Notes: generated by a model not told the origin, from the sequence alone. Positions 1 through 54,600 are shown, counted from the stretch's first letter. The stretch: 64,000 nucleotides of DNA from an uncultured Bacteroidales bacterium (GCA_900317715.1 ONHS01000001.1:18316-82315), one strand, 5' to 3'. Numbers and translations are program-made.

Positions 1-22
1 GTTCATAAACTCGAAAGAGTAT

Positions 23-481
23 ATGTCCAGAGAGTACGGGCACTCCCGATTAGACAAAGACGCTCCGTTCAAAATCACAGGTGTGACTGCCGACACCTTG
101 ATGCAGTCGGATGAAGGCGTATCCTACATAATCCAAGGGAAAGTGGTCAATCATACGGGGAAATCCATCAGTCACGCCAATATGAGCGGTAGTTTAAAGG
201 TGATTTTCGAGAACAAGACCGAGGAGGTTTCCAACAGTTACTCCAAGAACCATAAGGTTCTGAAAAAAGAGGTGTCGGAATCGCATCCTTGGAAAGACGG
301 AGAGGCCATTGATTTCACCGTGATTACGAGCGAAATCAAGCAAATCTATTTGGATTACGACCCGCAATACGTGTTTTTCACCATAGAGATGTCGGCGAGC
401 GACCCTATCGGATATTCGTATAACAAGGCGATTTATGAGGTGGATATGAAGGGCAGGTGGAATGCCATCAGAAAAAAGTAA
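23..481 (+). CDS. hypothetical protein, 152 aa
   Basis: Complete ATG-to-TAA ORF with ordinary composition, same strand and 33 nt upstream of the next gene. No motif recognised. Confidence 0.4.
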   Translation: MSREYGHSRLDKDAPFKITGVTADTLMQSDEGVSYIIQGKVVNHTGKSISHANMSGSLKVIFENKTEEVSNSYSKNHKVLKKEVSESHPWKDGEAIDFTVITSEIKQIYLDYDPQYVFFTIEMSASDPIGYSYNKAIYEVDMKGRWNAIRKK

Positions 482-513
482 CTGACAGAGATTCAAAGAG
501 AAAATACACCAAT

Positions 514-882
514 ATGAAAAAATTATTGTTTATTGCCAGCATTATTGTTGTGTCATTGTGTTTCCTGACGGGTTGCGACAAACCAAGCAACCGCTATTAC
601 ATCAAATACGAAGTGAGTATTGACGGTATGGAGAATGGCGAAACACACGTCACGGTCAACACCGAAAATGGTGAACAGTCCTTTGTCACACCGAGAGAAT
701 TTTCCGAGACCTTTGGTCCGGTAAAGAAGAACTTTGTGGCAAAAATATCTGCATACAATACCGCTCTATATGGCACTCTCAATGTTCGCATTTATGCGTG
801 TAAAGGAGAGGAGGCTTTTGTATTGAAAGCATCAACTTCCAAGAAAGGTGAAGCGGATGCGGAATACCGAATAGATTTTTGA
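514..882 (+). CDS. putative lipoprotein, 122 aa
   Basis: MKKLLFIASIIVVSLCFLTGC is a signal peptide plus lipobox Cys. Start moved from track position 457 to ATG 514 so the signal peptide is N-terminal. Confidence 0.55.
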   Translation: MKKLLFIASIIVVSLCFLTGCDKPSNRYYIKYEVSIDGMENGETHVTVNTENGEQSFVTPREFSETFGPVKKNFVAKISAYNTALYGTLNVRIYACKGEEAFVLKASTSKKGEADAEYRIDF

Positions 883-939: not shown

Positions 940-3900
940 ATGAACGAGAACGATCTGAAGGAAAGAAACTTTGAGGCCGACATTGAACGATGGCTCTTGG
1001 AAAAAGGGGGCTATATCAAAGGCGCTCAGAAAACCTACGACAGGGAACGGGCCATTGACATGGCTGTACTTACCGCCTTTCTGGATACGACCCAGCACAA
1101 GCAGTGGGAACGCTACGTGCGCAAGTATGGGGACAAAGCAGAAAGCCGCCTCTATCAAGTTTTTCAAGAAAATGTGGTGCGCTACGGTCTGATTTGGGTG
1201 CTCCGTAACGGCATCGATGATTTGGGCATCAAACTCAAACTCTGCTATTTCCGTCCAGCTTCAGAACTGAACGAGGAATTGATGCTGAAATACCGTCAAA
1301 ACATCCTTCAGGAAACTCGTCAATTTGCTTACTCCACACTTAACCGCAACACCATCGACATGGTGCTCTCCCTCAATGGTATTCCCGTAGTGGCTATGGA
1401 ACTGAAAAACCAACTCACCGGACAGAATGTGGAGAATTCCCGTTACCAGTGGATGAACAACCGCGACCCAGAGGAGTTGATCTTCCATTCCAACACTCGC
1501 ATACTGGCCTATTTTGGAGTGGATCTCTACGAGGCAATCATGGCTACGGAACTAAAAAAGGAGAATACCTATTTCATGCCGTTCAATCAGGGTAGCGGAG
1601 GAGCAGGAAACGTGGGTGGAGCAGGGAATCCGGAATGTGAAGACAAGGACGACTACGCCACTTCCTATTTGTGGAAGCACGTGCTGCAACGCGATATGCT
1701 GTTGAGTATCTTGCAACGTTATATTTCCCGACAGGAGGAAGAAAAAATCAAACTGTTTCGTGACAAACACGGCAAGATACGGGAAAAGAAGGAGACTTCT
1801 GTGAAGATTATCTTTCCGCGTTACCACCAGTTGGACGTGGTTGAGAAATTAATTGCCGATACGGAGGAGAAGGGCTGCGGTCAAAACTATCTGATACAGC
1901 ATTCGGCAGGTTCCGGCAAGTCGAATTCCATTGCCTGGCTCACCTACCGGCTGGCTTCGCTGCACGATGCTGAACAAAGGAGTGTCTTTGATGGCGTTTT
2001 TGTAATCACGGACCGCCGTGTGCTCAACGCACAGTTACAGACCACTATTCTTGGTTTCGACCACATAGAGGGGCAAATCGAGACTATCACGGACAAAGAC
2101 CCCTCAACGAAACTGCGCGATGTGATCAACGACGGTGCCGCCCGCATTGTCATCTGCACCCTGCATCGTTTCCCCTTCATTTATAAGGAAGTCTCCTCAC
2201 GAAGTGGCAAACGCTACGCCATCATTGTGGATGAAGCGCACAGCAGTCAGAGCGGAAAAAGTGCAGAGAAAGTGAAAACAGCTTTGGCCGACACCGACGA
2301 GGCGTTGCGTGAGATGGCCGAACTGGAAGAAAAAACTGAGGATGAACTGGAAAAGGAGCGCGATGCCATGATGGAAGACTTGCTTGCACAAGGCAAACAT
2401 AACAATCTGTCATTCTACGCATTTACGGCTACTCCCAAACCCAAAACCCTCCAGACTTTCGGAGTGTTAGTGGAGAAAGGAAACACCCCCGAAGAGGACA
2501 AATACCGTGCTTTTCATATTTATTCCATGCTTCAGGCTATTGAAGAAGGCTTTATCAAAGACGTGCTGTTGCAATATACCCCATACAGCGTGACTTACGA
2601 GATACAGAAGCGCATTGAACACGATCCGACATACGAGGAGACACCGGCCACCCGTGCGGTGAAAGCCTATCACGACAATCACCAGCACGTTATCAATCAG
2701 AAAACGGAAATTATTGTGGAGAAATTCCGGCAAGTCACGCTGAATGCCATCAAAGGACAGGCAAAAGCTATGGTGGTGACTTCAAGCCGGGCCCATGCGT
2801 TGCGCTATTTCTTGCAAATCCAAAAATATTGTGAGGACAAGGGTTATACCGATGTTCGTCCAATGGTGGCATTCTCCGGTAAGGTACAATATGGTGATTC
2901 GGAATACACTGAAAGCAAGTTGAACAGCCATGATGATTTCCACATTAGTGAGGAGCGGTTGCCGTTATACTTCGCCAGCGATATGTTCAACATGCTGGTG
3001 GTGGCCGACAAATACCAGACGGGATTTGACGAACCGTTGCTGCACACCATGTTTGTGGACAAAAGACTGAAAAATGTGAAGGCCGTGCAGACACTTAGTC
3101 GCTTGAACCGTTCACTGAAGGACAAGAAGGACACTTACGTGCTGGATTTCGTGAACGAGCCCGATTCCATCAAAAAAGCTTTTGAACCATTCTACACTGC
3201 CACAGAGTTGATTCGCCCTGTGGATGTGAACGGTGTTTACAACTTCCGTAACGACATCGCCCAATATCACCTTTGGACAGTTGCCGATGAAGAAGCCATC
3301 TACAAACTGGCTACCGACACGAAGGGCGACAAAAGCCGTTTGGCCAAGCTGAGCAACGCTTTCAAGCCTGTGGTGGACCGGTTTTCTGAACTTGATGAAG
3401 AAACGCGTTTCAAAGTGCGTTCGCTGATTAAGAATTTTGTGCGTTTTTACGCCTATATGGCGCAAGTGGAACGCACTTACGACCGCTCGTTGTATAAAAC
3501 TTACACTTTTTGTGATTTGCTTTACCGCTTGTTACCAAAGACCCCACATGAGAAAGTGGATTTGAACAAACAGATTCAGCTCATCAATTCGCGCATAGAG
3601 GAGGGACAAACGCAGAGCATAATACTGGATAAAGGGCAAGGCGGCATCAAGGGTGAGAACGTGAAAGGTGGCAGCAAGCCAGACGACAACACCGATTTAC
3701 TGTCAAACATCATCAACAAGGTGAACCTGATGTTCAAAGGCAATTTCTCGCCAGCTGACCGTGTGATTGTGGAAGCCATTTACGATAAGTTGAGTACGGC
3801 TTCGGCGAAGAAGAAGCTGGCCAAGCAGGCTCAAAATAACGATCCAAAGCAGTTCGCAGAAAGCATCTTCCCGGAGGTGTTCGAGAAAGCTGCCCAAAAG

Positions 3901-4677
3901 TGTTACGATGAGAGTGTGGGTGCATTTGACCGCTTATTCCAAAATAAGGAGTTGTACAACAGCATTATGACCCAGATGGCCGACTTGATGTATCAGAACT
4001 ATCGAGCAGAGGGCGAAACACTCATCTTTAATCCTGAACGTTTTAAGGAGAAGATTTTGCCGACAATTGAGCAGGAATTTGCTGTTTATAGGACGATGCC
4101 AAAAGCCAAGGAAAAGATTGCGGATGATTTGGTAGCACTCATCGCGGCCCAAACCACAGATGACATTGATGGAGCCAACGATGTTATTCAAAATGCTTTC
4201 AATCGTCTCTATTGTAGTCCTTCAAAGGTTTCATTAGTTGACAAAAAACAGCATTTCAACACTCTTGTCAGTCGGTTTGAGGTGTTCCTAAAGAAAGTGT
4301 TTTATCTAAACAATCTTTCAGAGATTGTATGTACCAAGCCCGGTCAGGAGGGCATGAAAGCCACTTTGGCTGATTGCATTTTCCAAACACCCTGCTTGAA
4401 ACGCTTAAAGTACTCGGAGGACGAAGCAGACCAGAAATTCAGTAACTATTTGACTATGGTGCGGGATTGGAGAAATGATAACGCCCACAAAGCCCCCATC
4501 ACCAAAGAGCAAGAATGTGACGTAGCAATTAACGTGCTGACCGCCATGTATCTCTATGTGGTGGCTTTTGGCATCAAAAGATGGCAAATTGACCATGTAA
4601 ATCCTGCAGTCTATCAATTAGGAATTGACAGAGATCAACCGATTAGATTGGCAGCAGAACCGGGACCAGATGAATAA
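940..4677 (+). CDS. hsdR: type I restriction enzyme R-subunit-like nuclease/helicase (HsdR-like), 1245 aa, with extra C-terminal HEPN-like domain
   Basis: N-terminal PD-ExK-type nuclease signature (DMVLS...AMELK, ELK at 1399-1407). SF2 Walker A QHSAGSGKS (1909-1923) and DEAH box IIVDEAHSSQSG (2230-2241). Long alpha-helical C-terminal region typical of HsdR, then WRNDNAHK (RNDNAH at 4471-4488). Confidence 0.85.
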   Translation: MNENDLKERNFEADIERWLLEKGGYIKGAQKTYDRERAIDMAVLTAFLDTTQHKQWERYVRKYGDKAESRLYQVFQENVVRYGLIWVLRNGIDDLGIKLKLCYFRPASELNEELMLKYRQNILQETRQFAYSTLNRNTIDMVLSLNGIPVVAMELKNQLTGQNVENSRYQWMNNRDPEELIFHSNTRILAYFGVDLYEAIMATELKKENTYFMPFNQGSGGAGNVGGAGNPECEDKDDYATSYLWKHVLQRDMLLSILQRYISRQEEEKIKLFRDKHGKIREKKETSVKIIFPRYHQLDVVEKLIADTEEKGCGQNYLIQHSAGSGKSNSIAWLTYRLASLHDAEQRSVFDGVFVITDRRVLNAQLQTTILGFDHIEGQIETITDKDPSTKLRDVINDGAARIVICTLHRFPFIYKEVSSRSGKRYAIIVDEAHSSQSGKSAEKVKTALADTDEALREMAELEEKTEDELEKERDAMMEDLLAQGKHNNLSFYAFTATPKPKTLQTFGVLVEKGNTPEEDKYRAFHIYSMLQAIEEGFIKDVLLQYTPYSVTYEIQKRIEHDPTYEETPATRAVKAYHDNHQHVINQKTEIIVEKFRQVTLNAIKGQAKAMVVTSSRAHALRYFLQIQKYCEDKGYTDVRPMVAFSGKVQYGDSEYTESKLNSHDDFHISEERLPLYFASDMFNMLVVADKYQTGFDEPLLHTMFVDKRLKNVKAVQTLSRLNRSLKDKKDTYVLDFVNEPDSIKKAFEPFYTATELIRPVDVNGVYNFRNDIAQYHLWTVADEEAIYKLATDTKGDKSRLAKLSNAFKPVVDRFSELDEETRFKVRSLIKNFVRFYAYMAQVERTYDRSLYKTYTFCDLLYRLLPKTPHEKVDLNKQIQLINSRIEEGQTQSIILDKGQGGIKGENVKGGSKPDDNTDLLSNIINKVNLMFKGNFSPADRVIVEAIYDKLSTASAKKKLAKQAQNNDPKQFAESIFPEVFEKAAQKCYDESVGAFDRLFQNKELYNSIMTQMADLMYQNYRAEGETLIFNPERFKEKILPTIEQEFAVYRTMPKAKEKIADDLVALIAAQTTDDIDGANDVIQNAFNRLYCSPSKVSLVDKKQHFNTLVSRFEVFLKKVFYLNNLSEIVCTKPGQEGMKATLADCIFQTPCLKRLKYSEDEADQKFSNYLTMVRDWRNDNAHKAPITKEQECDVAINVLTAMYLYVVAFGIKRWQIDHVNPAVYQLGIDRDQPIRLAAEPGPDE
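4207..4584 (+). other. HEPN-like C-terminal domain of the HsdR-like protein (approx. aa 1090-1215)
   Basis: R-N-D-N-A-H (Rx4H, canonical RNxxAH form) sits in a predicted helical segment after the normal HsdR C-terminal region. Boundaries are approximate. Confidence 0.5.
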
Positions 4678-4731
4678 TCGGTGTGTGTTCGACAGGCAGA
4701 TATTAGATTCATTTCGAGGATATTGTGTTCG

Positions 4732-4758
4732 GACAGGTTCAACATGACTGAACCTGTC
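4732..4758 (+). terminator. 10-bp perfect stem-loop after hsdR-like gene (gacaggttca / tgaacctgtc, 7-nt loop)
   Basis: Read directly from the sequence. The following T-tract is weak (tgttgtatcttt), so terminator function is uncertain. Confidence 0.4.
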
Positions 4759-4763
4759 TGTTG

Positions 4764-4811: not shown

Positions 4812-6533
4812 ATGAACTCATTCACATACATCATTTTAGCATTGGTAGTAATCTGCACTATCTGTACCATCATTTTGATGGTCAAGGTTTTCTCCAGACA
4901 AGAAACCACATCGGATGTTTCATCAAAAGACTTTGACCGCTTGGAGAGCAAAATCTTGGAAGAGAACAGAAATGCCCGGCAAGAGCTGTCAGACAATATG
5001 GGTAAAATGCGTGACGAACTGTCAGGTAACGTTGGGAAGATGCGAGAGGAGATTTCCGGTACGGTGGACAAATTACGTTCTGAATTCACTGAAAATGTGA
5101 GCCAGTTAAGGAAAGAATCATCGGAAACTTCCAAAAGCCAGCGAGAGGAGACACAGAAAGTGTTCACGGACTTTCAGACTGCATTCGGCGACAATGTCGC
5201 AAAGCTCAATTCCTTCCAAAAGGAAGGCTTCGATGACATGGGTAAGCGCAATAAAGTGTTTGCGGACACCATGGAGTCGAAACTTGAAAACTTGAAGGAT
5301 ACAACCAACATGACGCTGACAAAATCGTTCGAGCAATTCTTCAAAACATTCGATGCCAACACTGACAAATCGGTTGAGGCGCAGAATGCCGGTTTTGAGA
5401 AGATGGAGAAACGTCAGTCGGACTTGATCAAGACTACGGAAACCAAACTTGATGCGCTGCGTTCCATCGTCGAGGAAAAGCTGACCACGATGTCCGAGAA
5501 GTTTCAGGAAGGGTTCGAGAAGAACACCGAAAAGATGGTGGAGGCTCAGAAGGAGCGGTTTGCCGAAATGGACAAGCGGCAGTCGGACTTGATCCAAACG
5601 ACAGAGAAACGGTTGGATGAGATGCGGGCGACCGTGGATGAGAAGCTGCAGAAGACCCTGAACGACCGTCTCGGGCAGTCTTTCAAGCTGGTCAGCGAGC
5701 AACTCGAAAGCGTCCAAAAAGGGTTGGGCGAGATGAAGAACCTCGCTTCCGATGTCGGAGGTTTGAAGAACGCGTTAACCAATGTCAAAGTGCGTGGCAA
5801 TTTCGGGGAGCTGCAACTCAAGGCGTTGTTGGAGCAGATGCTGTCTCCTGAGCAATACGATGAGAATGTGGCCACCGTGCCCGGCAGCTCGGAACGCGTG
5901 GAGTTCGCCATCAAGTTGCCCGGTAAGGATGATCCCCATGGGTCGGTGTATCTGCCTGTCGATTCCAAGTTCCCCAAGGATGTCTATGACCAGTATGTCG
6001 ATGCCATAGACACGGGAGATGCTGCGGCGATCAAATCGAAATCCAGCCAGTTCGAGAACACGATATTGGCCATGGCAAAGGACATCAGCACCAAATACAT
6101 ATCCGTTCCCGACACGACCAATTTCGCCATCATGTTTGTGCCCGTTGAGAACATCTACGCCGAGGTCATACGCCGTTCCAAACTCACCCAAGAGCTTAGA
6201 GACAAATGGAACGTGCTCGTCACGGGACCGACCACCTTGGGCGCCTTGCTCAGCAGTTTGCAGATGGGCTTTCGCACATTGGCCATTGAGAAACGTAGCA
6301 ACGATGTCTGGACCACGTTGGGCGCGGTCAAGACGGAGTTTTCCAAATTCGGCGACCTGCTTGAGAAGGCCAAGAAGAACATTGATACGGCTTCCGCGAC
6401 CATCGAACAACTTCAAGGTACACGTACAAAAGCCATCAACCGTAAACTTCGGGAGGTTGAAGCCCTCCCGACGGATCAAGCGGCTGCACTGTTGCCGGAT
6501 ATGAATGATGAGGGTGTTTTGGATGAGGAGTGA
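4812..6533 (+). CDS. rmuC: DNA recombination protein RmuC, 573 aa, with N-terminal TM helix and expanded coiled coil
   Basis: N-terminal TM segment (FTYIILALVVICTICTIILMV) and a long E/K/Q-rich coiled coil. Conserved RmuC C-terminal core (VRGNFGELQLKALLEQ..., FAIKLPG..., VDSKFP..., IMFVPVENIY). Start moved to ATG 4812. Confidence 0.85.
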   Translation: MNSFTYIILALVVICTICTIILMVKVFSRQETTSDVSSKDFDRLESKILEENRNARQELSDNMGKMRDELSGNVGKMREEISGTVDKLRSEFTENVSQLRKESSETSKSQREETQKVFTDFQTAFGDNVAKLNSFQKEGFDDMGKRNKVFADTMESKLENLKDTTNMTLTKSFEQFFKTFDANTDKSVEAQNAGFEKMEKRQSDLIKTTETKLDALRSIVEEKLTTMSEKFQEGFEKNTEKMVEAQKERFAEMDKRQSDLIQTTEKRLDEMRATVDEKLQKTLNDRLGQSFKLVSEQLESVQKGLGEMKNLASDVGGLKNALTNVKVRGNFGELQLKALLEQMLSPEQYDENVATVPGSSERVEFAIKLPGKDDPHGSVYLPVDSKFPKDVYDQYVDAIDTGDAAAIKSKSSQFENTILAMAKDISTKYISVPDTTNFAIMFVPVENIYAEVIRRSKLTQELRDKWNVLVTGPTTLGALLSSLQMGFRTLAIEKRSNDVWTTLGAVKTEFSKFGDLLEKAKKNIDTASATIEQLQGTRTKAINRKLREVEALPTDQAAALLPDMNDEGVLDEE

Positions 6534-6603
6534 TAGCGTTCGTTAATCTCTGCAACTGTCTGAAGAAATATGTTAATTGTCATATTATACAAACTGTAAT
6601 TTT

Positions 6604-7383
6604 ATGGAATACATTGATACTGGGAAATGTATTTGGTGTAAACTTGAAAAGCCCGTTGTTTCTTTCGGGAAAAAGCCACATATTATCCCGCATGCACTTA
6701 ATGCAAATTATATTGGAACGGATATTTGTAATAAGTGCAATACTTTTTTTGGCACGAGCACTTCCAACAAACCATCTGTTGACTTGGTTTTCAAAGAAGT
6801 ATTCAATGCTTTTCGGTTTTTTGGACAAAAATTGACGATCAATTCGTATAAAACATTTAAATCAGTCTATTTTAAATATGAACACAGCAAAAACATAATT
6901 ACAGTCAAGAATTCTTTTTTAACAACAACACTTACAAGGCAGTTTAAGAGAGGTTTGTTTGAGATTTTTCTTCAATATTACCATGACCAAACTCATGGAG
7001 GTAATAATCCGATTTTTGATCCGATAAGGGATTTTGCTCGGTATGATAAAGGCAATTTACGTGTCTACTACCTAAAAGCTGACTATATTCTCAAACCTGT
7101 ACGTGAAGAAGATATGTTTGTTTTGCCTATGTCAGAAGTGGCTATTGCAGAAGTCTTTTCTTTAGGCATTTATCGTTTTCACTTCTTTGGTCATTTTTTC
7201 TATTTAGAGATAATTCCAGAGTTGTTTAACATTAATTCAAAAAAATATTTTCAAGAACAAACAGAGCTTTTGGTAAAAGCACCTAATCTTATGGGTGAGA
7301 TCATAGAACTAACTGATATTCTTGAAGTCGATATGTTTATGCAACGCTTTCATAAAAGGAAAATTTGTTTCAAAACATCATAA
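6604..7383 (+). CDS. HNH-type (HNH_5-like) endonuclease-domain protein, about 259 aa, AT-rich
   Basis: N-terminal CIWCKLEKPVVSFGKKPHIIPHALNANYIGTDICNKCNTFFG has the CxxC...H-I-I-P...CxxCN layout of HNH nucleases. The remaining ~200 aa are unassigned. The start could also be 6577. Confidence 0.5.
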   Translation: MEYIDTGKCIWCKLEKPVVSFGKKPHIIPHALNANYIGTDICNKCNTFFGTSTSNKPSVDLVFKEVFNAFRFFGQKLTINSYKTFKSVYFKYEHSKNIITVKNSFLTTTLTRQFKRGLFEIFLQYYHDQTHGGNNPIFDPIRDFARYDKGNLRVYYLKADYILKPVREEDMFVLPMSEVAIAEVFSLGIYRFHFFGHFFYLEIIPELFNINSKKYFQEQTELLVKAPNLMGEIIELTDILEVDMFMQRFHKRKICFKTS

Positions 7384-7621
7384 CCCATTCAAAAACAGAA
7401 TGATAATAAGTCAAAATAACCTTCGAATTGTTGACGATCGCTCAATCCGTACTCAGATACCTGAATAAGACTATCAAACTACTTATGGTTATCCGAGAGC
7501 TATATGCGTGAATCACTTCTCTCTTATTGGACAAGTTTTGAATCTCCCACTATGCCAACGAATGGGAGTAGCCCTCAAAAAAATATTTTTATGATTAGAC
7601 GATCTGTATTGAAAATTTCCG

Positions 7622-7629
7622 TAATTTTG
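7622..7629 (+). promoter_or_regulatory. -7 box TAATTTTG upstream of abiEi-like gene
   Basis: Matches TAnnTTTG, 41 nt before ATG 7670. Confidence 0.5.
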
Positions 7630-7669
7630 CAAAAATTTCGGTGTAAAATTAATGTGAAAAACTAACTAT

Positions 7670-8272
7670 ATGACTATAGCTCAAATATTTGAAGAGGAAT
7701 ATCAGAAAGCAGAGAAAGGTTCGCTAATTTTTGCCTCTGACTTTGCGGATTACAATCAGGATTACATAGGCGACTTGCTTGCTCGTTATTCTAAGGATGG
7801 ACGGTTGGAACGGCTGGCCAATGGTGTCTATCTGAAGACAACTATCACAAAGTTCGGTCCAGTGTATCCGACTCCTGCAAAGATAGCAGAGGCGATAGCG
7901 CGTAGGGACCATTGTCAGGTCCTGATGGCTGGCCTGGCTGCTGAAAACCATTTCGGTCTTTCAACGCAGGTTCCGATGAAAGTGGTGTTCCTGACCAGTG
8001 GATCGGCCCGAAAGTTGAATGTAGGCAACACGACCATTGAGTTCAAGCGCGGTGTGCCTAAAAACTTCGCTTTCAAAGACGAAACGATGGCCACGCTTTG
8101 TCTCGCCCTGAAAAGCATCGGCAACGGACACGTAACGGATGAACAACGTGCTGTGTTGAAGCGTTTCCTAAAGAACTATCTCCTTGATCACGATATCAAG
8201 GATGACTTGAAATTGATGCCACAGTGGATCCAGCGTCTGTTAAACGGGATTGTGAAGGAGGTGGAATTATGA
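7670..8272 (+). CDS. AbiEi-like / DUF6088-type antitoxin-transcriptional regulator, 200 aa
   Basis: Size, position immediately upstream of and overlapping (ATGA) an AbiEii toxin gene, and an N-terminal wHTH-like segment. The family call rests mostly on context. Confidence 0.6.
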   Translation: MTIAQIFEEEYQKAEKGSLIFASDFADYNQDYIGDLLARYSKDGRLERLANGVYLKTTITKFGPVYPTPAKIAEAIARRDHCQVLMAGLAAENHFGLSTQVPMKVVFLTSGSARKLNVGNTTIEFKRGVPKNFAFKDETMATLCLALKSIGNGHVTDEQRAVLKRFLKNYLLDHDIKDDLKLMPQWIQRLLNGIVKEVEL

Positions 8273-9279
8273 CAGCTTGGAAAGATTTGAGCAGGGATGA
8301 GCAGGTGGCTGCTTTACAACAGGTTGCTGGAATGATGCATATCTCCCCACAGGCCGTGGAGAAAGACCTATGGGTGACTATCATTCTGCAAATGGTGTTC
8401 GCCTTGCCGTTTGCTGACAAATTAGTATTCAAAGGAGGCACTTCGCTGAGCAAGGTATTCGGGATGATTGAGCGTTTTTCAGAGGATATTGACTTGGCAA
8501 TTGACCGATCATATTTCGGGATAGAAGGTGATCTGACGAAAAAGCAACTTAAACGTTTGAGGAAACTGTCATCAACTTTTGTTCGTGATACTTTATTCAG
8601 CGAATTGAGGGATTCGTTGCATCATAATGGATTTGATGAGCTTGAGGTGAAAGCGGAACCAGACGGGGAGGGCGATGCCACCTATCCCGAACCCCGAAAG
8701 ATATTCATTGAATATCCGAGTTTATTTGGCGAGAGAAATGACTATCTCAAACCGAGAGTGATGTTAGAAGTGGGAGCTCGTTCCCTGTTTGAACCCACGA
8801 CAAAAGCACAAGTGAGCAGTTTGGTGGAACAGGCATTCCCTGATGTATGTTCTTCCGTGGTGAATCCGATGATAACCACAGCCGTTATAGAGAAAACGTT
8901 TTTGGAGAAGGCGTTCCTCTTGCACGAGCTGTTTTCCACCAATGCGGGAATACTGGCGAACAGGAAATCGAGACATCTCTATGATTTGGAGAAGATGATG
9001 GATCAGCCCTTTGCTGCGAAAGCTATTGGAAATGATGCGCTTTGGGAGACAATAAGCCATCACTGGCAGGTATTCACGAGTATGAGAGATGTGGACTATA
9101 CGCCGGATATTCGTGAACGCATAATGTTGGTGCCTCCCCAGAACTTAATGAAAGAATGGAAGGATGACTATGAAGCGATGCGGGGAACAATGGTTTTTGG
9201 TGCCTCGCTTGATTTTGAGGCACTGATGGAACGGATGGAGGAGTTGCAGAGGCGATTCAGAGTGAAAAACTCACTGTGA
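8269..9279 (+). CDS. nucleotidyltransferase AbiEii/AbiGii-family toxin, 336 aa
   Basis: EKDLWVTIILQ...FKGGTSLSKVFGMIERFSEDIDL is the characteristic AbiEii N-terminal nucleotidyltransferase signature. ATG 8269 overlaps the upstream TGA (ATGA). Confidence 0.85.
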   Translation: MTAWKDLSRDEQVAALQQVAGMMHISPQAVEKDLWVTIILQMVFALPFADKLVFKGGTSLSKVFGMIERFSEDIDLAIDRSYFGIEGDLTKKQLKRLRKLSSTFVRDTLFSELRDSLHHNGFDELEVKAEPDGEGDATYPEPRKIFIEYPSLFGERNDYLKPRVMLEVGARSLFEPTTKAQVSSLVEQAFPDVCSSVVNPMITTAVIEKTFLEKAFLLHELFSTNAGILANRKSRHLYDLEKMMDQPFAAKAIGNDALWETISHHWQVFTSMRDVDYTPDIRERIMLVPPQNLMKEWKDDYEAMRGTMVFGASLDFEALMERMEELQRRFRVKNSL

Positions 9280-45628: not shown

Positions 45629-48600
45629 ATGAAAAACCTCATCTCCTTATTCGTGATTTTAGCGACGCTGGTGGCAGGGCTGAACGCACAGACCCTCACG
45701 GTGGCCAATGATCCGAATGGTGTTGCTATGCAGGATCGATACATCCCTGTATATGGTTATTACATGGATGCGGCACAACGGTCCCAAACCATTTACCCCA
45801 ATACCATGTTGACAGCGATGACGGGGAAATACATCACCGAACTCACCTATTATTTCGCCACCGCGCCTAACGGGACTTGGGGCGGTACCCAGACGGTAAA
45901 GATCGGGGTGACGACGGCCTCGGATTTGGAGAATGGGTTTGTCGCATCGCCTGCCACGCTGGTATGGACCGGCACGCTGTCGGCCAACATCTCCAACAAC
46001 CAGATGCACATCGTGTTGGACCAGCCATTCCTGTATAGTGGAGGCAATCTGCTGATTGAGATTGAAAATCCGACGGCGGCTACCTGGAAAGATTCCTATT
46101 TTGCCGGTCAGAGCCAGTCTGATCAGCTGTCGTATATGACTTGGTCGAACTATGGTACACCCCAGACCCATGCGGCGAACTTTCTGCCAAGACTGACGTT
46201 TGCGTATTCCTCCACCCCGGGATGTGCCACGCCTAACAACTTAGTTTCCTCAGTCAATGGCGATTTCGCCCTGCTGACCTGGTCTCCATCTCCATACAGC
46301 ACTGTCTCAAGTTACACCGTGGGATACAAGTCTTCATTAGACACTGCCTACACGGATGTGACGACAACGGACACCTTCCTCACCATCAGCAACTTGATAC
46401 CTAACACAGACATCCAATGGCGGGTTCGCGCCAACTGCGGCGATTCCGAACAGAGTTCTTGGAGAGCGGCCTCTCTGCACGTGCCGCAAGTCATAGGTAA
46501 TCTACCCTATCATTGCGACTTCGAGGATTTGGTCGAAAACCAGCAGTGGATGCTGCAAAACGGAAGCTACCCGAACAAATGGTGCATCGGGGAAGCCACA
46601 CACAGCAGCGGCAGCCATGCCTTGTACATCTCCAACAACGATGGCGCCAGCAACCAGTACTCCACCGGCAACTCAAGTTCCACTTCGACGGTTTGGGCTT
46701 ATCGGGACATTTATTTCGACACCACCTACAATGAATACGACATTTCGTTGGATGTCAAAGGGATGGGACATATAGATGCCGGCTTTATGCGTATGTATCT
46801 CGGTTCTCCGGCAACCCCTTCGGGAATGTCGGTTCCCGGCAACGCCATCCAAATGAGGACATTTTATTTTATAGAGAACTGGCAGCATTTCCATTTCGTT
46901 GTAGATAGCACACACCGGGGCTTGCAACGAATCTATTTTGTGTGGAACAACGGCTCTACCTTTGGTGTCAACCCTCCTGCCGCCATCGACAATCTTACAG
47001 TGACCGGTGTCAACATTCCAGCCCCTACAGGATTGACCGCCACAGACATCACCACCTCGTCCGCGACGCTTTCCTGGAATGGCGGTGCCTCGTCTTCCTA
47101 CACCCTCTCCTACCGTATTGCCTCTGACACCGCCAGCACAGAAGTGACACTCAGCGACACCTTTTTCGTGGCCACGGGATTGGATGTGTCACAGACCTAT
47201 TTGTGGAAGGTCAAGGTGAACACAGGTACAGGAAGTGCATGGAGCGGCGAAAGCAGTTTCAAAACCCTGGCAAATATAGCGCAAGTGCCCTACCAGTGCG
47301 ATTTTGAGGACAATTTGGAGAACCAGCAATGGCAGCTCGTTAACGGCAACTACCCCAACCGCTGGTTCATTGGAAGTGCCGTGAACCATGGCGGCGAAAA
47401 AGCGCTGTTCGTCTCCGACAACAATGGGGTGTCATACAGTTACAACACCAATGTTTCCTACATTTGGGCATACCGCGACATTGACTTTGACACCATTTAC
47501 GCCGGCCACCGTCTCTCCTTCGACTGTAAAAACCACACCTTCTACAGCAGCAGTTACCATGGCACTTTCCGAGTGTATATTGGCGACCCTGTTGATCCGA
47601 ACGGCGGATATATTCCGGCTGGAGCTGTGCAGTTAGGCAGTGACATTTACAACCAGAACAACTGGACACGACCCACTTTCCTGTTAGATTCCACCTACAG
47701 AGGAGTGAAACGCCTCTATTTCTATTGGCACACGCCCGGCTCCTATTCCCGTGTGAACCCACCTGCCGCAGTAGATAATGTCACCATCGAGAGCTTCACC
47801 TGCGCGACACCCGAGGGGCTTGCCACCCAACCCGACAGCACCTCCGCTGTCCTCACCTGGAACGCGCCTGTTTTCGGCACAGCTTCCTCTTATACGCTGG
47901 CTTACAAGACATTGTCTGACCTTGAATACACGGAAGTGACGGTAACCGACACTTTCTATCTTCTAACAGAATTGACGGCCTCCACCGAATACGAATGGAA
48001 GGTTCGCGCCCACTGTTCTGCAAACGATGAGAGTGACTGGAGCGAGTCGGTTTCGTTCATCACCGCGCCCTTGTTAGCGCAGCTGCCCTACTTCTGTGGG
48101 TTCGAAGATGCGTTGGAGAACCAGCAGTGGCGTTTCGTGAGACTGGCGGACGAGGGCTGGTTCATCGGGACCGCCACAGCCCACACGGGAGAACATTCGC
48201 TGTATAATTCCAACGACGGAGGGGTAAGCTATGCGGTGAACCAAGCGGACTACGGATCCAATGTACACGAGTTTTGGGCCTACCGCGACGTTAACTTCAC
48301 TCCCGGGTATGCCGACTACCAGATTTCTTTCGACTACAAAGGCATAGAAAACGCGTGGAGCAATTTGGTGCTGTTTATTGGCAACACTGGGGTAAGTGAG
48401 CCAGCCACATACACTTACACACCGGCAGGGACCCTTTTCTCCCAATATTTATCCGCCCAAGACACCGCTTGGCATCACTTCTCCCTTACGATTGACTCGA
48501 CTTATCAGGGAGTGAAGCGGATCTACTTTCATTTCAGCAACTCGTACGACCCGTGCGAAGCGCCTGCCGCCATTGACAACCTCACCATTACGGGAAACGC

Positions 48601-51600
48601 CTGTCAGAGCGTCCGCAACTTGCAGATTCTCAGCGTTTCCGACACCTTTGCGATACTCGCTTGGAATCCTGTTGAGGCCGAGAATTACACAGTGGCTTAT
48701 AAAACCGCTGACGAAACAGGGTTTACGGAAGTGCAAACCAGCGACACGACCCTTCAGCTCAATGGTCTGCTCCCGTCCACATCCTACGAATGGAAGGTGC
48801 GGGCGCATTGTTCGGATTCAACGGAGAGTTACTGGAGCGAACCGCTTACCTTCACCACGATACAGCTGCTTTCACATCTGCCTTACTTCTGCGATTTTGA
48901 AAACGCTGACGAAAACGCCCATTGGGAAACAACCGTTATCAACGGCAACAACCAGTGGTTCATCGGCAACGCTGCCAACAACGGCGGAACATCGTCCATC
49001 TACATCTCGCAGGATAATGGTCTTACCAACACCTTTGACGTCAGCAGCACCTCTCAGGCAGGCGCATACCGCGACATCTACTTCGACCCCGAATACAAGG
49101 AATACCTCCTTTCCTTTGACGTGCGTTGCCAAGGCGGAGCATTGTCCATGGCAGCGGTTCTAATCGGGAGTTCCAGTAACTTCGACTATGACGCGGTACA
49201 GCTTGGCGGCGAGATATACGGACTGCCCGAATGGACACACTACGAAGTTATCCTTGACTCCACCTTTGCCGGCAACCGCCGCCTCTACCTGAACTGGAAC
49301 AATATCTATTGGAGCTCCTTCAATCCGGGGGAGAATCCGCCTGCCGCTTTCGACAACATCTCCATCTCGGGTGTAAGTTGCAGTAAACCTGTTGATTTAG
49401 CCATGTCTGACATTGACCTGCACACCGCCACGGTTTCCTGGTCGAGCGGAAATGCGGGGACAGCCGCCTCTTACACCGTGTCTTACCGCAAAAACACAGA
49501 CACCGCATACGCCGAGGTGACCGTTTCCGACACCGCCCTGCAAATCACAGAGCTCCAATCCGGCAGCCAATATTTCTGGAAAGTGCGCGCAAACTGTCAA
49601 GAGGGGGAGACGAGCGACTGGAGCGCGGAAAAAGAGTTCTACACTTTTGCGGAACTGCCCTATTCCTGTGGATTTGAGACTGCGGAAGAAAGTGATTTGT
49701 GGGTGTCGCATTACCAAGCCACGTATGATAACGTAGCTGTTTATGAGAACCGCTGGTCAGTGGGTGAAGCGACTCACAGCACGGGAACTTCCGCCATGTA
49801 TATTTCCAGCGATAACGGATTGTCCAACACCTATTCCTTTGATTACGGCTGTACAGCATGGACGACGTTAAGTCTGTATCTTGATCCCGCCTACCCCGAA
49901 TACCAGATTTCGTTTGACTTCAAAGGTGTCGGCGAGCAGGGACAAGACTACATGCGGGTCTATTGCGGCGACCCGACCTACACTTCCGACCAATCTTCTT
50001 TCCCCAATAATGTGGAACAGATAGGAGGGGACTTCAACCTCACGGAAGATTGGACGACCTTCACTTTCACGCTCGACTCCACGCACGCTGGTTATAAACA
50101 GCTGTATTTTAGCTGGACAAACAATTATTACGATGGGGTGAATCCGCCCGCCGCCGTTGATAACATCATCATCATCGGCAATTCATGCGGCATCCCGACC
50201 AATATGACCCAACAGATTGCGGATTCAACGGCCATGCTGAAATGGTCAGCCAATATCGGTGAGCCCGAATCCTACATTTTGGCTTACAAGAAAACTTCTG
50301 ACAGTGTGTTCACAGAAATCAACACCACAGACACTTCCCTCCTGCTCACCTCGCTCCTCCCGCTGACCGACTATGTCTGGAAAGTGCGGGCCGTATGCGA
50401 TGACGACTCACAAAGCTTCTGGAGCAACACATTAGGTTTCACCACCACGCAGCCACTGAAACACCTGCCGTATCTCTGTTCCTTCGATGATGCGGAAGAG
50501 AACGGACAATGGACGATGGTGAATGGAGATGCTGAGAACCAGTGGGTCATCGGCAATGCCACCGGCTACGGCGACAACAGCGCCCTCTACATCTCCAACG
50601 ACGACGGCACGACCAACGCCTACGAGGTTTACTCCGCCGCCACGGTTTGGGCTTACCGCGATGTCTATTTTGACGAGAATTTCCAAGCATACCAGCTGTC
50701 CTTCGACTATAAGAGCATGGGACAGAACACTGCTGACTACATGCAGGTGTTCGTGGGCACTCCCGCCGCTCCTTCCGGCACGGCTATTCCGAGCGGAGCG
50801 GTACAACTCGGCGGACAGTTCTCCTACATCAACAATTGGGCTCACTATTCCTTCCTTGTGGATTCCACACACGTCGGGGCGCAGCGCATCTATTTCCTGT
50901 GGGTCAACAACAACTCCACAGGAGTGCAGCCGCCCGCCGCAGTCGATAATCTCTCCATCCTCGGACTGACTTGTGTCACCCCTTCAGAGCCGGTGGTAAC
51001 GGACATGACGGACAACACCGTGACACTCAGCTGGTTACCGAATCCGATCGGCACTGCCGCTTCCTACACGGTGAGCGTGCGTCAGGCGGAGAGCACCACA
51101 ACCTCCGAATATACTACCACTGACACGTTCTTGACCATTAGCGGACTCACTCCTTCTACCGCCTACTTCTGCAAAGTGCGCGCCAACTGCTCCACCAACG
51201 ACCATAGTGGATGGACCAGCGACTTCAGCGTCCAGATGCCAGCGGTTTTGCCCTACGTCTGTGACTTTGAAGATGCCAACGAGCGCAATGCCTGGCAGTT
51301 CGTGAATGGATCCTATACCAACCAATGGTACGTTGGCAACGCAGTCAGCTTGAGCGGGGACTATTCCTTGTATATATCTAACGATGGAGGAGTAACTTAC
51401 GCATACTCTTACCCTTATAACAGTTCCTACGTTTGGGCTTACCGGGACATCTATTTTGATCCGTCCGATTCCGTCTATACCCTTTCCTTTGACATGCGAG
51501 GGGTGGGAGGAACCAGCTACCAAATTTCTGCTTACACAAATGTTTACATCGGAAGTCCTGCCACACCTAACGGCACCACCACCCCCGCTGGAGCCACCGA

Positions 51601-54600
51601 ACTAGGAAACGGCCTTTGCGGGATGTCGGCGTGGACAACCAAAACCTACACGTTGAACCACTCCTACGCCGGTCTGCAACGACTCTATTTCCTGTGGCGC
51701 AACACCGGCTGGACAGTCTCCAATCCGCCAGCAGCTATCGACAACCTCACCATCGACGGTACCCCGTGTACCGATGTCCCTTACGAACTGACGGCGCAGG
51801 CGATGGACACGCTCGCCAATCTGTTGTGGTCTATGCACAACGGCAGTGCCGAATCCTACACTGTTGCCTACAAACTGCAATATGACACCGCCTTCACCTA
51901 CATCACCGTACAGGACGAACATCTCACCATTGGCAACCTCACCCCGCTGACCACCTACGTTTGGAAAGTGCGGGCCAACTGCACCGCCACCGACCACAGC
52001 CAATGGTCTGCGGAATCCACCTTCCAGACCCCGGCGATTACCGCTCGTCTGCCATACGTATGTGATTTCGAAGATGCGGATGAGAACAGCCGATGGACGT
52101 TCGTGAACGGGAGTTACGCCAACAAATGGCATATCGGAAACGCTGTGAACAACGGAGGCACCTCATCGTTGTATGTTTCCAATGACAATGGTGCCACCAA
52201 CACCTACACAACCAACTATTCGATGATTTGGGCTTACCGCGATGTCTATCTGGATCCCAGCTATACAGATTACGTGATTTCATTCGACTGCAGAGCTTTC
52301 GGCGAGCTGTATAACAACAATCCTGTTGACTACGCGAAGGTATTCTTAGGACCTCCCACGACACCAACTGTCACACCCGTCAGCTCAAATATTATTGTCC
52401 CTGACGGTGCAACCCAGATGGGCGATGTCATCTATTTGGATTCCACCTGGCACAATGTCACCATCAATTTAGACACCGCCTTCTCCGGTCTGCAGCGCAT
52501 CTACATCCTGTGGCGCAGCGATGTGTCATGGGGTACCAACCCGCCAGCGGCTTTCGACAACATCTCTATCACACCGGAGGGTTGCGGCATTCCACGCCAT
52601 CTGACCGCCAACCAAGTGTCGGAGAACGATGCAGTGCTGTCGTGGACTGCGGTTTACCAAGCCGACTCCTACACGGTGGCTTACCGCAGACAATCCGACA
52701 GCACCTACAGCTACGTAACAACCACCGATAACCATATTTTGCTGACCAACTTGTTGCCCAAGACCAACTATTTGGCGAAAGTCAAAACCAATTGTGACTC
52801 TTCACAGGGCGCATGGAGCGACGAGTTCCAGTTCAGTACGACTACTTTGCCCTATTTCTGCGGCTTTGAGGAAGCGGATGAGAACGCTTGTTGGATTTTG
52901 GATGACGGCATGAACAACCACAAGTGGTACATCGGCCATGCGGTGCACTATGAAGGTGATACAGCTCTGTACGTCTCCAATAACAACGGTGTTTCCAATA
53001 CCTTTTCTGATAATGTGAACGCCCAAACTTGGGCTTACCGCGACATCTACTTCGATCCGCAATATTCCGAATATCTGATGGAGTTCGACATCCGCTCATA
53101 CGGTTATCCTGGAGCGTCAGTAGACTATGTGAGAGTATTTCTCGGGCCGCCGGCAACTCCTTCTGGCAATTACACTCCAGCAAACGCAGAAGTCATCGGC
53201 GACTTCTATGGTATGACTAATTGGAACCATTCCCGTTTCGTAGTCAACGGTTCGCATGCGGGCATGCAACGTCTGTATTTCCTTTGGACACAGCAGATTG
53301 TCGGGACAAACAACAACCTTCCGGGTGCTGTTGACAACATCTCCATCGTCGGTTCGCCGTGCAGCATCCCGACGGAGTTGACCGTTTCCGACCTTGCAGA
53401 CAACACGGCGGTGGTCTCTTGGAGCCCCGGCGCGTGCGGCATCACCAACGACTACACGGTCGGCTATCGGATGAGCAGTGACACGGGATGGTACGAACTT
53501 TCCACCATCGATACATTCCTCCTGCTGGTGAATTTGCAGTCCTCCACGCAATACACATGGCGGGTACGTAAGAGTTGCGTGCCGTCATACTCCAGCCAAT
53601 GGAGCGAAGAAAGCACCTTCTTCACGGAGGCCACCGAGGCGCAGCTGCCCTATTTCTGCGGCTTCGAAGAGAGTGACGAGAATCGTGACTGGCGTCTGTT
53701 GGGTGTGAGCGATAACCGCTGGTATATCGGGCAGGCTGCGCAACAAGCTGGTCAATACGCCCTCTATGTCTCCAACGACAGCGGTGCCACCAATGCCTAC
53801 AATGTTTACGGCTCTATGACTAATTCCTGGGCGTACCGCGACATCTATTTCACCCCTGGTTACTCAGAATACCAGATAGCTTTTGATTTCCGAGGGCTTG
53901 GACAGAGCGGTGATGACCGTACTCGTATCTTCCTCGGACCTCCGGTCCAGGTAGAGCCTAACGCGACCTATTCCATCACCATCCCTTCCGGATTGGAAGA
54001 ACTTGGCAATGGATTGAACTCGGATGCTACATGGACCAGCCATTCGTTCACGGTTGATTCCACGCACGCAGGGCACCAGCGCCTCTACTTCCTCTGGAGC
54101 AACGGCTTCTATGAAGGGACGAACCCGCCGGGTGCTGTCGATAACATCATGATTTACGGCGGAACCTGTGCGGCACCGCATAGTCTGACGGTGACCGCAA
54201 CCTCCACGACCAGCATCAGCATCCAATTCACCCCCGCCAACAACGGCGACCAGAATTGGGAGGCAGTCATCGTGGAAGACGGCCAACCTATAGATACTAC
54301 GCAGATTGTTGCGCTGACAAGTACCGCCTATACTTTCAATAACCTGCACAAAGACAGGCTTTACGTCATCTATGTGCGCACCAACTGCGGGAACAGCCAA
54401 AGTGCTTGGAGCTCCACTTCCCAGAGAACGGATTGCGGCACCATTACCGATATTCCTTATCAAGAATCCTTTGACACCTACGGCACTGGCTCCAACTTGG
54501 ACGGTTATTCAGCCTTCCCGAGATGCTGGAGCCGCCTCTACAGCTCGTACATTGTCGCGCCTTACCCGTTTATTTTCCAAAACGGATATTTCAGCGCACC

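What the first reader, a model, noticed from the sequence alone, without database searches (positions are those of the whole stretch)
4207..4584. HEPN-like RNxxAH domain fused to the C-terminus of the HsdR-like protein
After the normal HsdR C-terminal helical region, the last ~130 residues contain ...NYLTMVRDWRNDNAHKAPITKEQECDVAINVLTAMYLYVV.... RNDNAH (4471-4488) fits the Rx4-6H catalytic motif of HEPN RNases in its most common R-N-x-x-A-H form, embedded in predicted helices. Fusing a DNA translocase/nuclease with a putative RNase would couple DNA sensing to RNA cleavage, an abortive-infection logic. I recall that comparative surveys of HEPN domains noted links to restriction-modification systems, but I cannot verify whether this particular architecture has been characterised.
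Basis: partly seen in the sequence, partly recalled or inferred. Interest (0 to 1): 0.65.

Follow-up and report, generated by a model that had tools for sequence, protein, structure and literature searches.

The report
HEPN-like RNase module on HsdR
The restriction subunit of an ordinary-looking type I restriction-modification system from a rumen Bacteroidales bacterium carries a C-terminal domain with the hallmarks of a HEPN RNase; this kind of fusion was predicted by comparative genomics in 2013, I found no experimental test of it, and curated domain libraries still miss this family.

Summary
ORF 940-4677 (+) encodes a 1245-aa HsdR, and RNDNAH lies at nt 4471-4488 (R1178..H1183).

- The tail is an autonomous all-alpha module of about 190 aa (aa ~1034-1222), found in 165 clusters at 50% identity.
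- Nearly all long members are type I HsdR proteins.
- R, N and H of the motif are 98-99% conserved.
- A second HEPN signature, Ex3K (E1114-K1118), is also conserved.
- In the AlphaFold model the R ends a long helix and the H opens the following loop, as in HEPN domains.
- The only Pfam families that members hit repeatedly are HEPN families: DUF4145, RiboL-PSP-HEPN (best E 2.7e-6), Swt1-like, Cthe_2314 and Csm6-HEPN.

Weak points: the window protein itself is sub-threshold in Pfam (E 0.12-0.16), and Foldseek gave no significant match, though HEPN proteins rank near the top.

The gene closes an hsdM-hsdS-orf288-orf122-hsdR operon inside a defence island.

HEPN fusions to type I-like helicase/REase subunits were described computationally in 2013 (PMC3710099), so this is a new, uncurated member of a known kind.

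New details are a conserved C-terminal [M/I/L]AAE peptide and stand-alone paralogues. RNase activity and its regulation remain inferred.

The parts
940..4677 (+). hsdR: 1245-aa type I restriction subunit with a C-terminal HEPN-like module
   Evidence: Intact ORF. Pfam HSDR_N, SWI2_SNF2/ResIII and T1R_D3-like up to aa ~750. TIGR00348 hsdR E 2.2e-45, which is below the curated cutoff. PADLOC REase_I E 5.7e-33. Identical protein on 9 contigs.
1357..1407 (+). PD-(D/E)xK nuclease motif: D140 ... E154-L-K156
   Evidence: Read from the sequence inside the HSDR_N match.
1906..1923 (+). Helicase motif I (Walker A, AGSGKS)
   Evidence: Sequence, inside the ResIII/SWI2_SNF2 match.
2230..2241 (+). Helicase motif II (DEAH)
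   Evidence: Sequence.
4039..4605 (+). Autonomous HEPN-like module (aa ~1034-1222); the core four-helix part is aa ~1095-1215
   Evidence: The profile of close homologues matches aa 1034-1241 of full-length relatives. The same ~190-aa unit exists as stand-alone genes. AF2 models are all-alpha: pLDDT 81 for 183 aa and 89 for the 128-aa core.
4279..4293 (+). E1114-x3-K1118, the Ex3[KR] motif that is the second HEPN signature
   Evidence: E20, L23 and K25 of the core alignment are >=90% conserved in 66 diverse members. Positions. The motif is defined in PMC3710099.
4471..4488 (+). R1178-N-D-N-A-H1183, the Rx4H putative catalytic motif
   Evidence: Sequence. R 99%, N 99% and H 98% conserved. In the model R ends helix 68-87 and H lies in the loop before helix 96-117.
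4648..4659 (+). L1237-A-A-E1240, a conserved C-terminal short linear motif ([M/I/L]-A-A-[E/D]) after a disordered acidic linker
   Evidence: AA[ED] occurs in 74 of 105 members that have >=25 residues after the domain, against 9% of shuffled tails. This segment has pLDDT <50 in the model.
4730..4760 (+). Terminator-like hairpin (12-bp stem) after the hsdR stop codon
   Evidence: Consensus scan; a pattern match only.
1..481 (+). 3' part of orf288 (288 aa, no family match), lying between hsdS and hsdR
   Evidence: Gene call on L001 8676-9542 = window -385..481. No Pfam hit. Present only in the same species' locus L004 among related loci.
514..882 (+). orf122 (122 aa, no family match), immediately upstream of hsdR
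   Evidence: Gene call on L001 9575-9943. No significant Pfam hit. Found only in L004.

Best explanation
ORF 940-4677 encodes the R (translocase/endonuclease) subunit of a complete type I restriction-modification system. The operon is hsdM-hsdS-orf288-orf122-hsdR; hsdM and hsdS lie just upstream of the window.

The last ~210 residues of HsdR are a HEPN-superfamily module. It is a helical bundle carrying a conserved E-x3-K in an early helix and a conserved (W)R-N-x-x-x-H at the end of the penultimate long helix.

The most likely function is a metal-independent endoribonuclease whose composite active site forms when two such modules pair. I infer that it is kept silent in the resting enzyme. It would switch on when two HsdR tails are brought together, for example by stalled or colliding translocating complexes on unmodified DNA. 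Alternatively it would switch on when the R-M complex is disabled by an anti-restriction factor. Cleavage of cellular or phage RNA would then give a second, abortive-infection-like layer of defence.

Shown here: the domain, its motifs, their conservation, its near-exclusive attachment to HsdR proteins, and the intact nuclease and helicase motifs and operon partners.

Inferred: RNase activity, dimer-dependent activation, the trigger, and the outcome for the cell.
For: HsdR identity and intact motifs.

Operon partners hsdM and hsdS are upstream on the same contig. They are conserved in 12 related rumen Bacteroidales/Prevotellaceae loci with enough upstream sequence.

The tail family has 165 clusters at E<=1e-3. 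All eight full- or near-full-length members scanned are HsdR-type, and several shorter ones carry EcoR124_C, i.e. a different HsdR lineage with the same tail.

R, N and H are 99/99/98% conserved. E-x3-K is >=90% conserved.

The AF2 core model (pLDDT 89) places R at the helix end and H in the next loop. PMC3710099 describes exactly this position for HEPN.

Recurrent Pfam hits are only to HEPN-clan families, best E 2.7e-6. That is about 2e-4 after correcting for 66 queries.

HEPN toxins and Csm6 rank near the top of the Foldseek lists.

The module also exists as a separate gene in defence islands. One sits next to a Macro-TIR gene. Another sits 3 nt downstream of an HsdR that has its own tail. 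This fits a portable effector that pairs with a second copy.

Experimental precedent that a divergent HEPN needs its R and H for defence: RAZR/DUF4145 R146 and H154 (PMC13017515). The PrrC-EcoprrI logic and the prediction for R-M-fused HEPN domains are in PMC3710099.
Against: The window protein itself is sub-threshold for every Pfam HEPN model: Swt1 E 0.12, DUF4145 E 0.16.

I could not identify the member that gave E 2.7e-6 or see its alignment.

The weak Pfam hits mostly cover only the motif helix pair, so they are not independent of the motif.

Foldseek found no match with E<=1e-3 in the PDB or BFVD. Profile searches of PDB sequences found no HEPN entry.

Some family members have lost R or H (GNFERH, RNIVVNYGY, and stand-alone P0202/P0198/P0200), so a non-catalytic role is viable in at least some lineages.

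No data on RNA cleavage, toxicity or phage defence exist for any member I could find.
Confidence: 0.6

Rival explanations
1. The module is a HEPN-fold domain that is not a nuclease. It would act as an RNA-, nucleotide- or protein-binding regulatory or assembly domain of HsdR, for example sensing a ligand or an anti-restriction protein, or mediating HsdR-HsdR or HsdR-methylase contacts.
For: Non-catalytic HEPN domains are known, such as MtlR and the NTase-associated versions (PMC3710099). Some family members lack H or R. The C-terminal region of HsdR proteins is generally an assembly region, and relatives carry EcoR124_C just before the module. The conserved MAAE peptide suggests a docking function.
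Against: In PMC3710099, non-catalytic HEPN families are the ones that have lost Rx4-6H. Here R, N and H are 98-99% conserved together with the Ex3K acidic residue. That paper takes this pattern to predict an active RNase.
Confidence: 0.2
2. The module is an unrelated helical bundle that only resembles HEPN through a short convergent motif, and its function has nothing to do with RNA. It could be a family-specific extension of the HsdR C-terminal helical domain.
For: There is no significant structural match to solved HEPN structures. There is no PDB sequence-profile hit. Pfam hits are sub-threshold for the window protein and centred on the motif. Four-helix bundles are a common fold.
Against: Seven different HEPN-clan Pfam families, and no other clan, recur among the members, one at E 2.7e-6. 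Both HEPN signatures are present in the right order and in the right secondary-structure positions. The module is portable and sits in defence islands as a stand-alone gene, which is not expected of a mere structural extension of HsdR.
Confidence: 0.12
3. The motif is a chance occurrence in a poorly constrained tail, possibly a gene-prediction or assembly artefact.
For: Rx4-6H occurs 7 times in this protein against about 4 expected. Many database hits are short fragments or chimeric ORFs.
Against: The identical 1245-aa ORF occurs on 9 contigs. The motif is conserved down to about 25% identity. The model is confident. One chimeric ORF that I checked is a deletion scar of the same operon; other short ORFs whose contigs I examined look like remnants of broken hsdR genes.
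Confidence: 0.01

Closest known systems
HEPN domains fused to R-M restriction/helicase subunits (DUF4145-like and Swt1-like families; Anantharaman et al. 2013, PMC3710099)
   Same: The architecture class is the same: a HEPN domain fused to an REase + SF-II (EcoEI-like/'SWI2/SNF2') helicase subunit of an R-M system, never to the methylase. The motif is predicted active, and the proposed role is a PrrC-like second-line RNase. DUF4145, RiboL-PSP-HEPN and Swt1-like are the Pfam models that members of this family hit most often.
   Different: No member tested reaches the DUF4145 or Swt1 gathering score; the best values seen are 18.2 bits against 23.1 and 15.5 against 27.5. The family has its own signatures: FExFLKK, WRNxExH, MYxYV, ITDLE, and a C-terminal MAAE peptide. 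Pfam (2025 copy) and NCBIfam r20 have no model for it. I could not check whether the 2013 paper's example proteins belong to this family, because the supplement is not held.
PrrC anticodon nuclease with the EcoprrI type Ic R-M system
   Same: A HEPN RNase is functionally coupled to a type I R-M system. The RNase is silent while the R-M complex is intact and is unleashed when restriction is countered (as summarised in PMC3710099). This is the working model adopted here.
   Different: PrrC is a separate protein with an N-terminal ABC-type NTPase and is encoded between hsd genes. Here the HEPN module is covalently fused to HsdR and there is no ABC ATPase. The RNA target and the trigger are unknown here.
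RAZR (PD-T7-4), a zinc-finger + DUF4145 HEPN RNase
   Same: It is a divergent HEPN that is barely detectable by sequence. Its R and H are essential for phage defence, it acts by abortive infection through RNA cleavage, and its activity depends on how HEPN dimers are positioned (PMC13017515). Its R146..H154 spacing (Rx7H) resembles the RNTxDGNGxH (Rx8H) variant seen in a subgroup of this family.
   Different: RAZR is a small stand-alone protein activated by phage ring proteins. It has no link to HsdR, and no sequence match to it was detected.
HepT/MntA-type HEPN toxins (DUF86)
   Same: They share an R-N-x-x-x-H motif in a four-helix bundle and a dimeric composite active site. They are the best-ranked Foldseek targets for the longer model: 8xdj, 8xeh, 6m6u, 7bxo and 1wwp, with TM up to 0.5 normalised to the target.
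   Different: The matches are not significant (E >= 0.37). There is no MNT antitoxin partner here, and the module has an extra N-terminal helical extension and a long insert.

Membership tests
HEPN superfamily | Rx4-6H motif, with R and H conserved across homologues | tested here: met
   RNDNAH at aa 1178-1183. R 99% and H 98% conserved in about 170 aligned members. A minority have Rx8H or have lost R or H.
HEPN superfamily | Polar residue (N/D/H) immediately after the conserved R | tested here: met
   N is 99% conserved at that position. Criterion from PMC3710099.
HEPN superfamily | Upstream conserved acidic residue, typically within Ex3[KR] | tested here: met
   E1114-VFL-K1118. E and the following K are >=90% conserved in 66 diverse members.
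HEPN superfamily | [quoted passage not shown] | tested here: met
   AF2 core model, pLDDT 89. The helices are 5-31, 49-63, 68-87 and 96-117. R84 lies at the end of helix 68-87 and H89 in the loop. This is a prediction, not an experimental structure.
HEPN superfamily | Significant structural similarity to solved HEPN domains | tested here: inconclusive
   Foldseek against the PDB gave nothing at E<=1e-3. HEPN toxins, Csm6 and 1wwp are among the top hits (E 0.37-2.9, TM 0.4-0.5) alongside unrelated helical bundles.
HEPN superfamily | Significant profile match to a curated HEPN family | tested here: inconclusive
   The window protein gives Swt1 E 0.12 and DUF4145 E 0.16. Among the members, HEPN-clan families are the only recurrent hits, with best values RiboL-PSP-HEPN 2.7e-6 and Csm6_HEPN 6.9e-4. 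No member I could inspect passes a gathering score. HHpred was not available.
HEPN superfamily | Metal-independent endoRNase activity from a dimeric composite site | not testable with these tools
   This needs biochemistry.
Type I R-M HsdR subunit | N-terminal PD-(D/E)xK nuclease domain plus SF2 helicase motifs | tested here: met
   HSDR_N, ResIII/SWI2_SNF2 and T1R_D3-like. D140..E154xK156, AGSGKS, DEAH and QTLSRLNR are all present. TIGR00348 scores 155 bits, below its 284-bit equivalog-style cutoff, so this is a divergent HsdR lineage.
Type I R-M HsdR subunit | Encoded with hsdM and hsdS | tested here: met
   HsdM (HsdM_N + N6_Mtase, 584 aa) and HsdS (Methylase_S, 440 aa) lie upstream on the same contig. 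The arrangement is conserved in related loci.
Pfam DUF4145 (PF13643) | Score at or above the gathering threshold (23.1 bits) | tested here: not met
   12.5 bits for the window core. The best member seen scores 18.2 bits. It is related at clan level at most, so it is not filed as DUF4145.
PrrC/RloC anticodon nucleases | N-terminal ABC-type NTPase fused to a C-terminal HEPN | tested here: not met
   There is no ABC ATPase domain in the protein. This is a functional analogy only.

The most novel reading that the evidence does not exclude
The HsdR-fused HEPN module is a latent RNase that makes a single type I enzyme both a restriction and an abortive-infection device. Two tails would pair only when HsdR motors stall or collide on foreign DNA, or when the complex is poisoned by an anti-restriction protein. 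The conserved, tethered C-terminal [M/I/L]AAE peptide would act as the latch or trigger sensor. Degenerate stand-alone paralogues encoded right after some hsdR genes would act as inhibitory pseudo-partners.
Probability: 0.25. Interest if true: 0.65.

Novelty: new member of a known kind. Interest (0 to 1): 0.42.

Why it matters
Type I R-M enzymes are treated as pure DNA-targeting systems. A built-in RNase would mean a widespread class of gut and rumen Bacteroidales restriction enzymes has a second, RNA-directed output. This would be a covalent version of the PrrC-EcoprrI arrangement.

The idea was put forward in 2013 from domain architectures, and I found no experimental test of it. This locus is a clean, complete system for that test: intact hsdM, hsdS and hsdR, intact catalytic motifs, and many natural variants including H-less paralogues.

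Practically, the family is currently annotated only as 'type I restriction endonuclease subunit R'. It has no Pfam or NCBIfam model, so it is invisible to defence-system annotation.

Tried and rejected
- Sequence-profile searches of PDB chains, with a close (A1) and a diverse (A2) alignment, found no HEPN entry. The hits were Csm2, PP5 and PscA at E>=0.1, which I judge to be noise.
- Foldseek of both models against the PDB, and of the core model against BFVD, gave no significant hit.
- hhalign of the family profile against E. coli RnlA, a very divergent HEPN used as a single sequence, was uninformative.
- I tried to fetch Lactococcus pNP40 AbiF as a reference, but the record is not in the collection.
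- I tried to find the member behind the 2.7e-6 RiboL-PSP-HEPN hit by scanning 28 further members.
- The PrkA_C hit (E 0.0095-0.017) was rejected as noise because only 1 of 66 members shows it.
- P0056, with 36 repeats matching the motif region, was rejected as a low-complexity tandem-repeat artefact.
- The PADLOC PD-T4-5 hit (E 0.005, no stretch passing on its own) was left uninterpreted.
The taxonomic picture therefore covers close relatives only.
- A plasmid search gave one unannotated Phocaeicola hit.
- The supplement of the 2013 paper is not held, so its example proteins could not be compared.

Full report
**1. The observation**

The window has an intact ORF at 940-4677 on the + strand encoding 1245 aa. 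The codons AGA AAT GAT AAC GCC CAC at 4471-4488 give R1178-N-D-N-A-H1183. The identical protein is encoded on 9 independent metagenomic contigs, so it is not an assembly accident.

The loose HEPN pattern Rx4-6H alone means nothing here: it occurs 7 times in this protein against about 4 expected. The specific RNxxAH has an expectation of about 0.005.

**2. The host protein and its operon**

- Pfam finds HSDR_N, SWI2_SNF2/ResIII/DEAD and T1R_D3-like up to about aa 750.
- NCBIfam TIGR00348 (hsdR) matches at 2.2e-45 but below its cutoff.
- PADLOC calls it REase_I.
- The nuclease motif D140...E154-x-K156, Walker A (AGSGKS), DEAH and motif VI (QTLSRLNR) are all intact.

The window starts inside the operon. 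On the longer contig the order is hsdM (HsdM_N + N6_Mtase, 584 aa), hsdS (Methylase_S, 440 aa), orf288, orf122, then hsdR. A terminator-like hairpin follows the hsdR stop at 4730-4760.

Downstream lie RmuC, an HNH_5-like gene and an AbiEi/AbiEii pair. Upstream of the operon lie another N6_Mtase (801 aa) and a DUF6339 gene. The locus is therefore part of a defence island.

The closest genome hit (98% identity) is an uncultured rumen Bacteroidales MAG, RUG083. Relatives are in rumen and gut Prevotellaceae and Bacteroidales. In 12 related loci with enough upstream sequence, hsdM-hsdS-hsdR(+tail) is conserved. orf288 and orf122 occur only in the same species, so they are local cargo rather than obligate partners. 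The tail is less conserved (51-85% identity) than the HsdR body (67-89%).

**3. The tail is a discrete, widespread module**

A profile of close homologues, searched against 1.8 billion representative proteins, found 165 clusters at E<=1e-3.
- Every full-length or near-full-length member scanned (1182-1503 aa, plus a 759-aa fragment) has HsdR domains. Several shorter ones begin with EcoR124_C, i.e. the same tail sits on a different HsdR lineage.
- Sources name these proteins only 'type I restriction endonuclease subunit R'.
- The profile match starts at aa ~1034 and ends at aa ~1222.

The same ~190-aa unit also occurs as a stand-alone gene.
- P0206 and P0137 sit directly after a Macro-TIR gene in an RmuC...SAM-lyase island.
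- P0202 starts 3 nt after the stop of a 1276-aa HsdR that carries its own tail.

Many of the short database hits are fragments of broken hsdR genes. One, P0013, is an in-frame deletion scar that joins HsdM residues 1-85 to the HsdR tail.

**4. Is it HEPN?**

I used the criteria of Anantharaman et al. 2013 (PMC3710099).

(a) Rx4-6H conserved. R is 99% and H 98% conserved over about 170 aligned members. Conservation is still >=90% in a 66-sequence alignment that goes down to 22% identity.

(b) Polar residue after R. N is 99% conserved.

(c) Upstream acidic residue in Ex3[KR]. This is E1114-VFL-K1118 within the family signature FExFLKK, >=90% conserved.

[quoted passage not shown] In the AF2 core model (pLDDT 89, pTM 0.82), R is residue 84 at the end of helix 68-87 and H is residue 89 in the loop before helix 96-117.

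(e) Profile matches. The window protein alone gives only Swt1-like HEPN E 0.12 and DUF4145 E 0.16. Across 66 diverse members, the families hit by more than two members are all HEPN families:

| Pfam family | Members hit (of 66) | Best E-value |
|---|---|---|
| DUF4145 | 13 | 0.0021 |
| RiboL-PSP-HEPN | 9 | 2.7e-6 |
| Swt1-like | 8 | 0.0076 |
| Cthe_2314-like | 5 | 0.012 |

Csm6-HEPN (6.9e-4) and MAE_28990 were each hit by 2 members. DUF3644, which the paper says overlaps the EC042_2821 HEPN family, was hit by 1. LA2681-like HEPN also appeared for one member. In all inspected cases the motif helix pair aligns to the C-terminal part of the HEPN profiles; in two it extends back to the Ex3K helix.

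(f) Structure search. No Foldseek match reached E<=1e-3. The top of the lists nevertheless contains HEPN toxins (8xdj, 8xeh, 8yuf, 6m6u, 7bxo), YutE, sacsin HEPN, 1wwp and Csm6, mixed with generic helical bundles. BFVD gave nothing.

I conclude that HEPN-superfamily membership is well supported by motif, conservation, topology and convergent weak profile hits. It is not clinched by a significant structural or single-profile match. I put it at about 0.85.

**5. How it probably works**

Established knowledge: HEPN domains with an intact Rx4-6H are metal-independent RNases whose active site forms at a dimer interface. In PrrC, RNase L/Ire1 and RloC the R and H are essential (PMC3710099). The same holds for the divergent DUF4145 HEPN of RAZR, where R146 and H154 are required for defence (PMC13017515).

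The 2013 survey proposed that HEPN domains fused to R-M nuclease or helicase subunits behave like PrrC. They would be silent while the R-M enzyme is intact and released when restriction is neutralised or overwhelmed.

I adopt that model, with dimerisation of two HsdR tails as the likely switch. It is inference. Nothing here shows RNA cleavage, toxicity or the trigger.

Two features found here bear on regulation.
- A conserved [M/I/L]-A-A-[E/D] peptide lies a few residues from the C-terminus, after a disordered acidic linker. AA[ED] occurs in 74/105 members against 9% in shuffles; in the window it is LAAE, aa 1237-1240.
- H-less stand-alone paralogues sit next to HsdR-HEPN genes. They could be pseudo-partners.

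A close relative, P0042, continues after the tail into an ASCH-like domain and is present on 7 contigs.

**6. Comparison with the known, and novelty**

The architecture class is already in the literature as a computational prediction. It appears as HEPN fused to an REase/SF-II helicase (DUF4145-like) and to a SWI2/SNF2 ATPase (Swt1-like) (PMC3710099).

This particular family does not reach the thresholds of those Pfam models. It has no Pfam or NCBIfam model of its own. I found no experimental paper on any HsdR-HEPN fusion.

It is not a PrrC/RloC member, because it has no ABC ATPase, and it is not filed as DUF4145. My verdict is a new, uncurated member of a known kind. It is moderately interesting as a clean test case for a 13-year-old prediction, but it is not a new principle.

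Noticed in passing
window 4648-4659 (aa 1237-1240), and C-termini of family members: A conserved short peptide [M/I/L]-A-A-[E/D] usually lies 3-14 residues from the C-terminus, after a disordered acidic linker. AA[ED] occurs in 74/105 members against 9% of shuffled tails, and it persists in members only about 25-30% identical in the domain. Its function is unknown; it could be a docking site, a latch or a degradation signal.
   Followed up: partly
L028 8001-8588, L032 7001-7573 (P0206, P0137): Stand-alone ~190-aa versions of the module (IRNETCH motif) are encoded directly after a Macro-TIR gene. The conserved cluster is RmuC - 2 unknown genes - SAM lyase - Macro-TIR - module.
   Followed up: partly
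L035 3168-7597: A 1276-aa HsdR has its own tail with an expanded RNTKDGNGGH (Rx8H) motif. Three nucleotides after its stop codon comes a stand-alone paralogue (P0202) that has lost the histidine. This may be an active/inactive HEPN pair.
   Followed up: partly
L018 9776-10423 (P0013, Prevotella sp. RGIG8056): An in-frame deletion scar joins HsdM residues 1-85 directly to the HsdR tail from RFEVFLKK onward, so the whole hsdM...hsdR operon has been excised. It lies next to a McrBC system. Other chimeric ORFs (P0005, P0011 with DUF3846, P0014 with an EcoRI_methylase N-terminus) join foreign N-termini to the tail at different points. Those contigs were not examined.
   Followed up: partly
P0042 (1503 aa, relative of the window protein; 7 contigs): The HsdR-HEPN protein continues after the MAAE peptide into an ASCH-like domain (MKCLSVQQPWASAI..., Pfam ASCH E 0.0011, just under threshold) and a further ~200 aa.
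   Followed up: no
window 1-882 (orf288 3' part and orf122); L001 8676-9943: Two genes with no family match lie between hsdS and hsdR. Among related loci they occur only in the same species. Other relatives carry different inserts between hsdM, hsdS and hsdR, so these positions behave as variable cargo slots.
   Followed up: partly
window 4812-9279: Downstream of hsdR lie RmuC (573 aa), an HNH_5-like protein (259 aa, weak match) and an AbiEi/AbiEii (DUF6088 + nucleotidyltransferase toxin) pair. Together with a second N6_Mtase (801 aa) and DUF6339 upstream of the operon (L001 1315-4593), this marks a defence island.
   Followed up: partly
window 45629-56773: A very large ORF (3714 aa) on the + strand. 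It was not examined.
   Followed up: no
P0056 (1971 aa, from the representative search): This protein consists of 36 tandem 53-aa repeats, each of which matches the motif region of the profile (RRQWQNSRLH). It looks like a repeat-driven false positive rather than a relative.
   Followed up: yes
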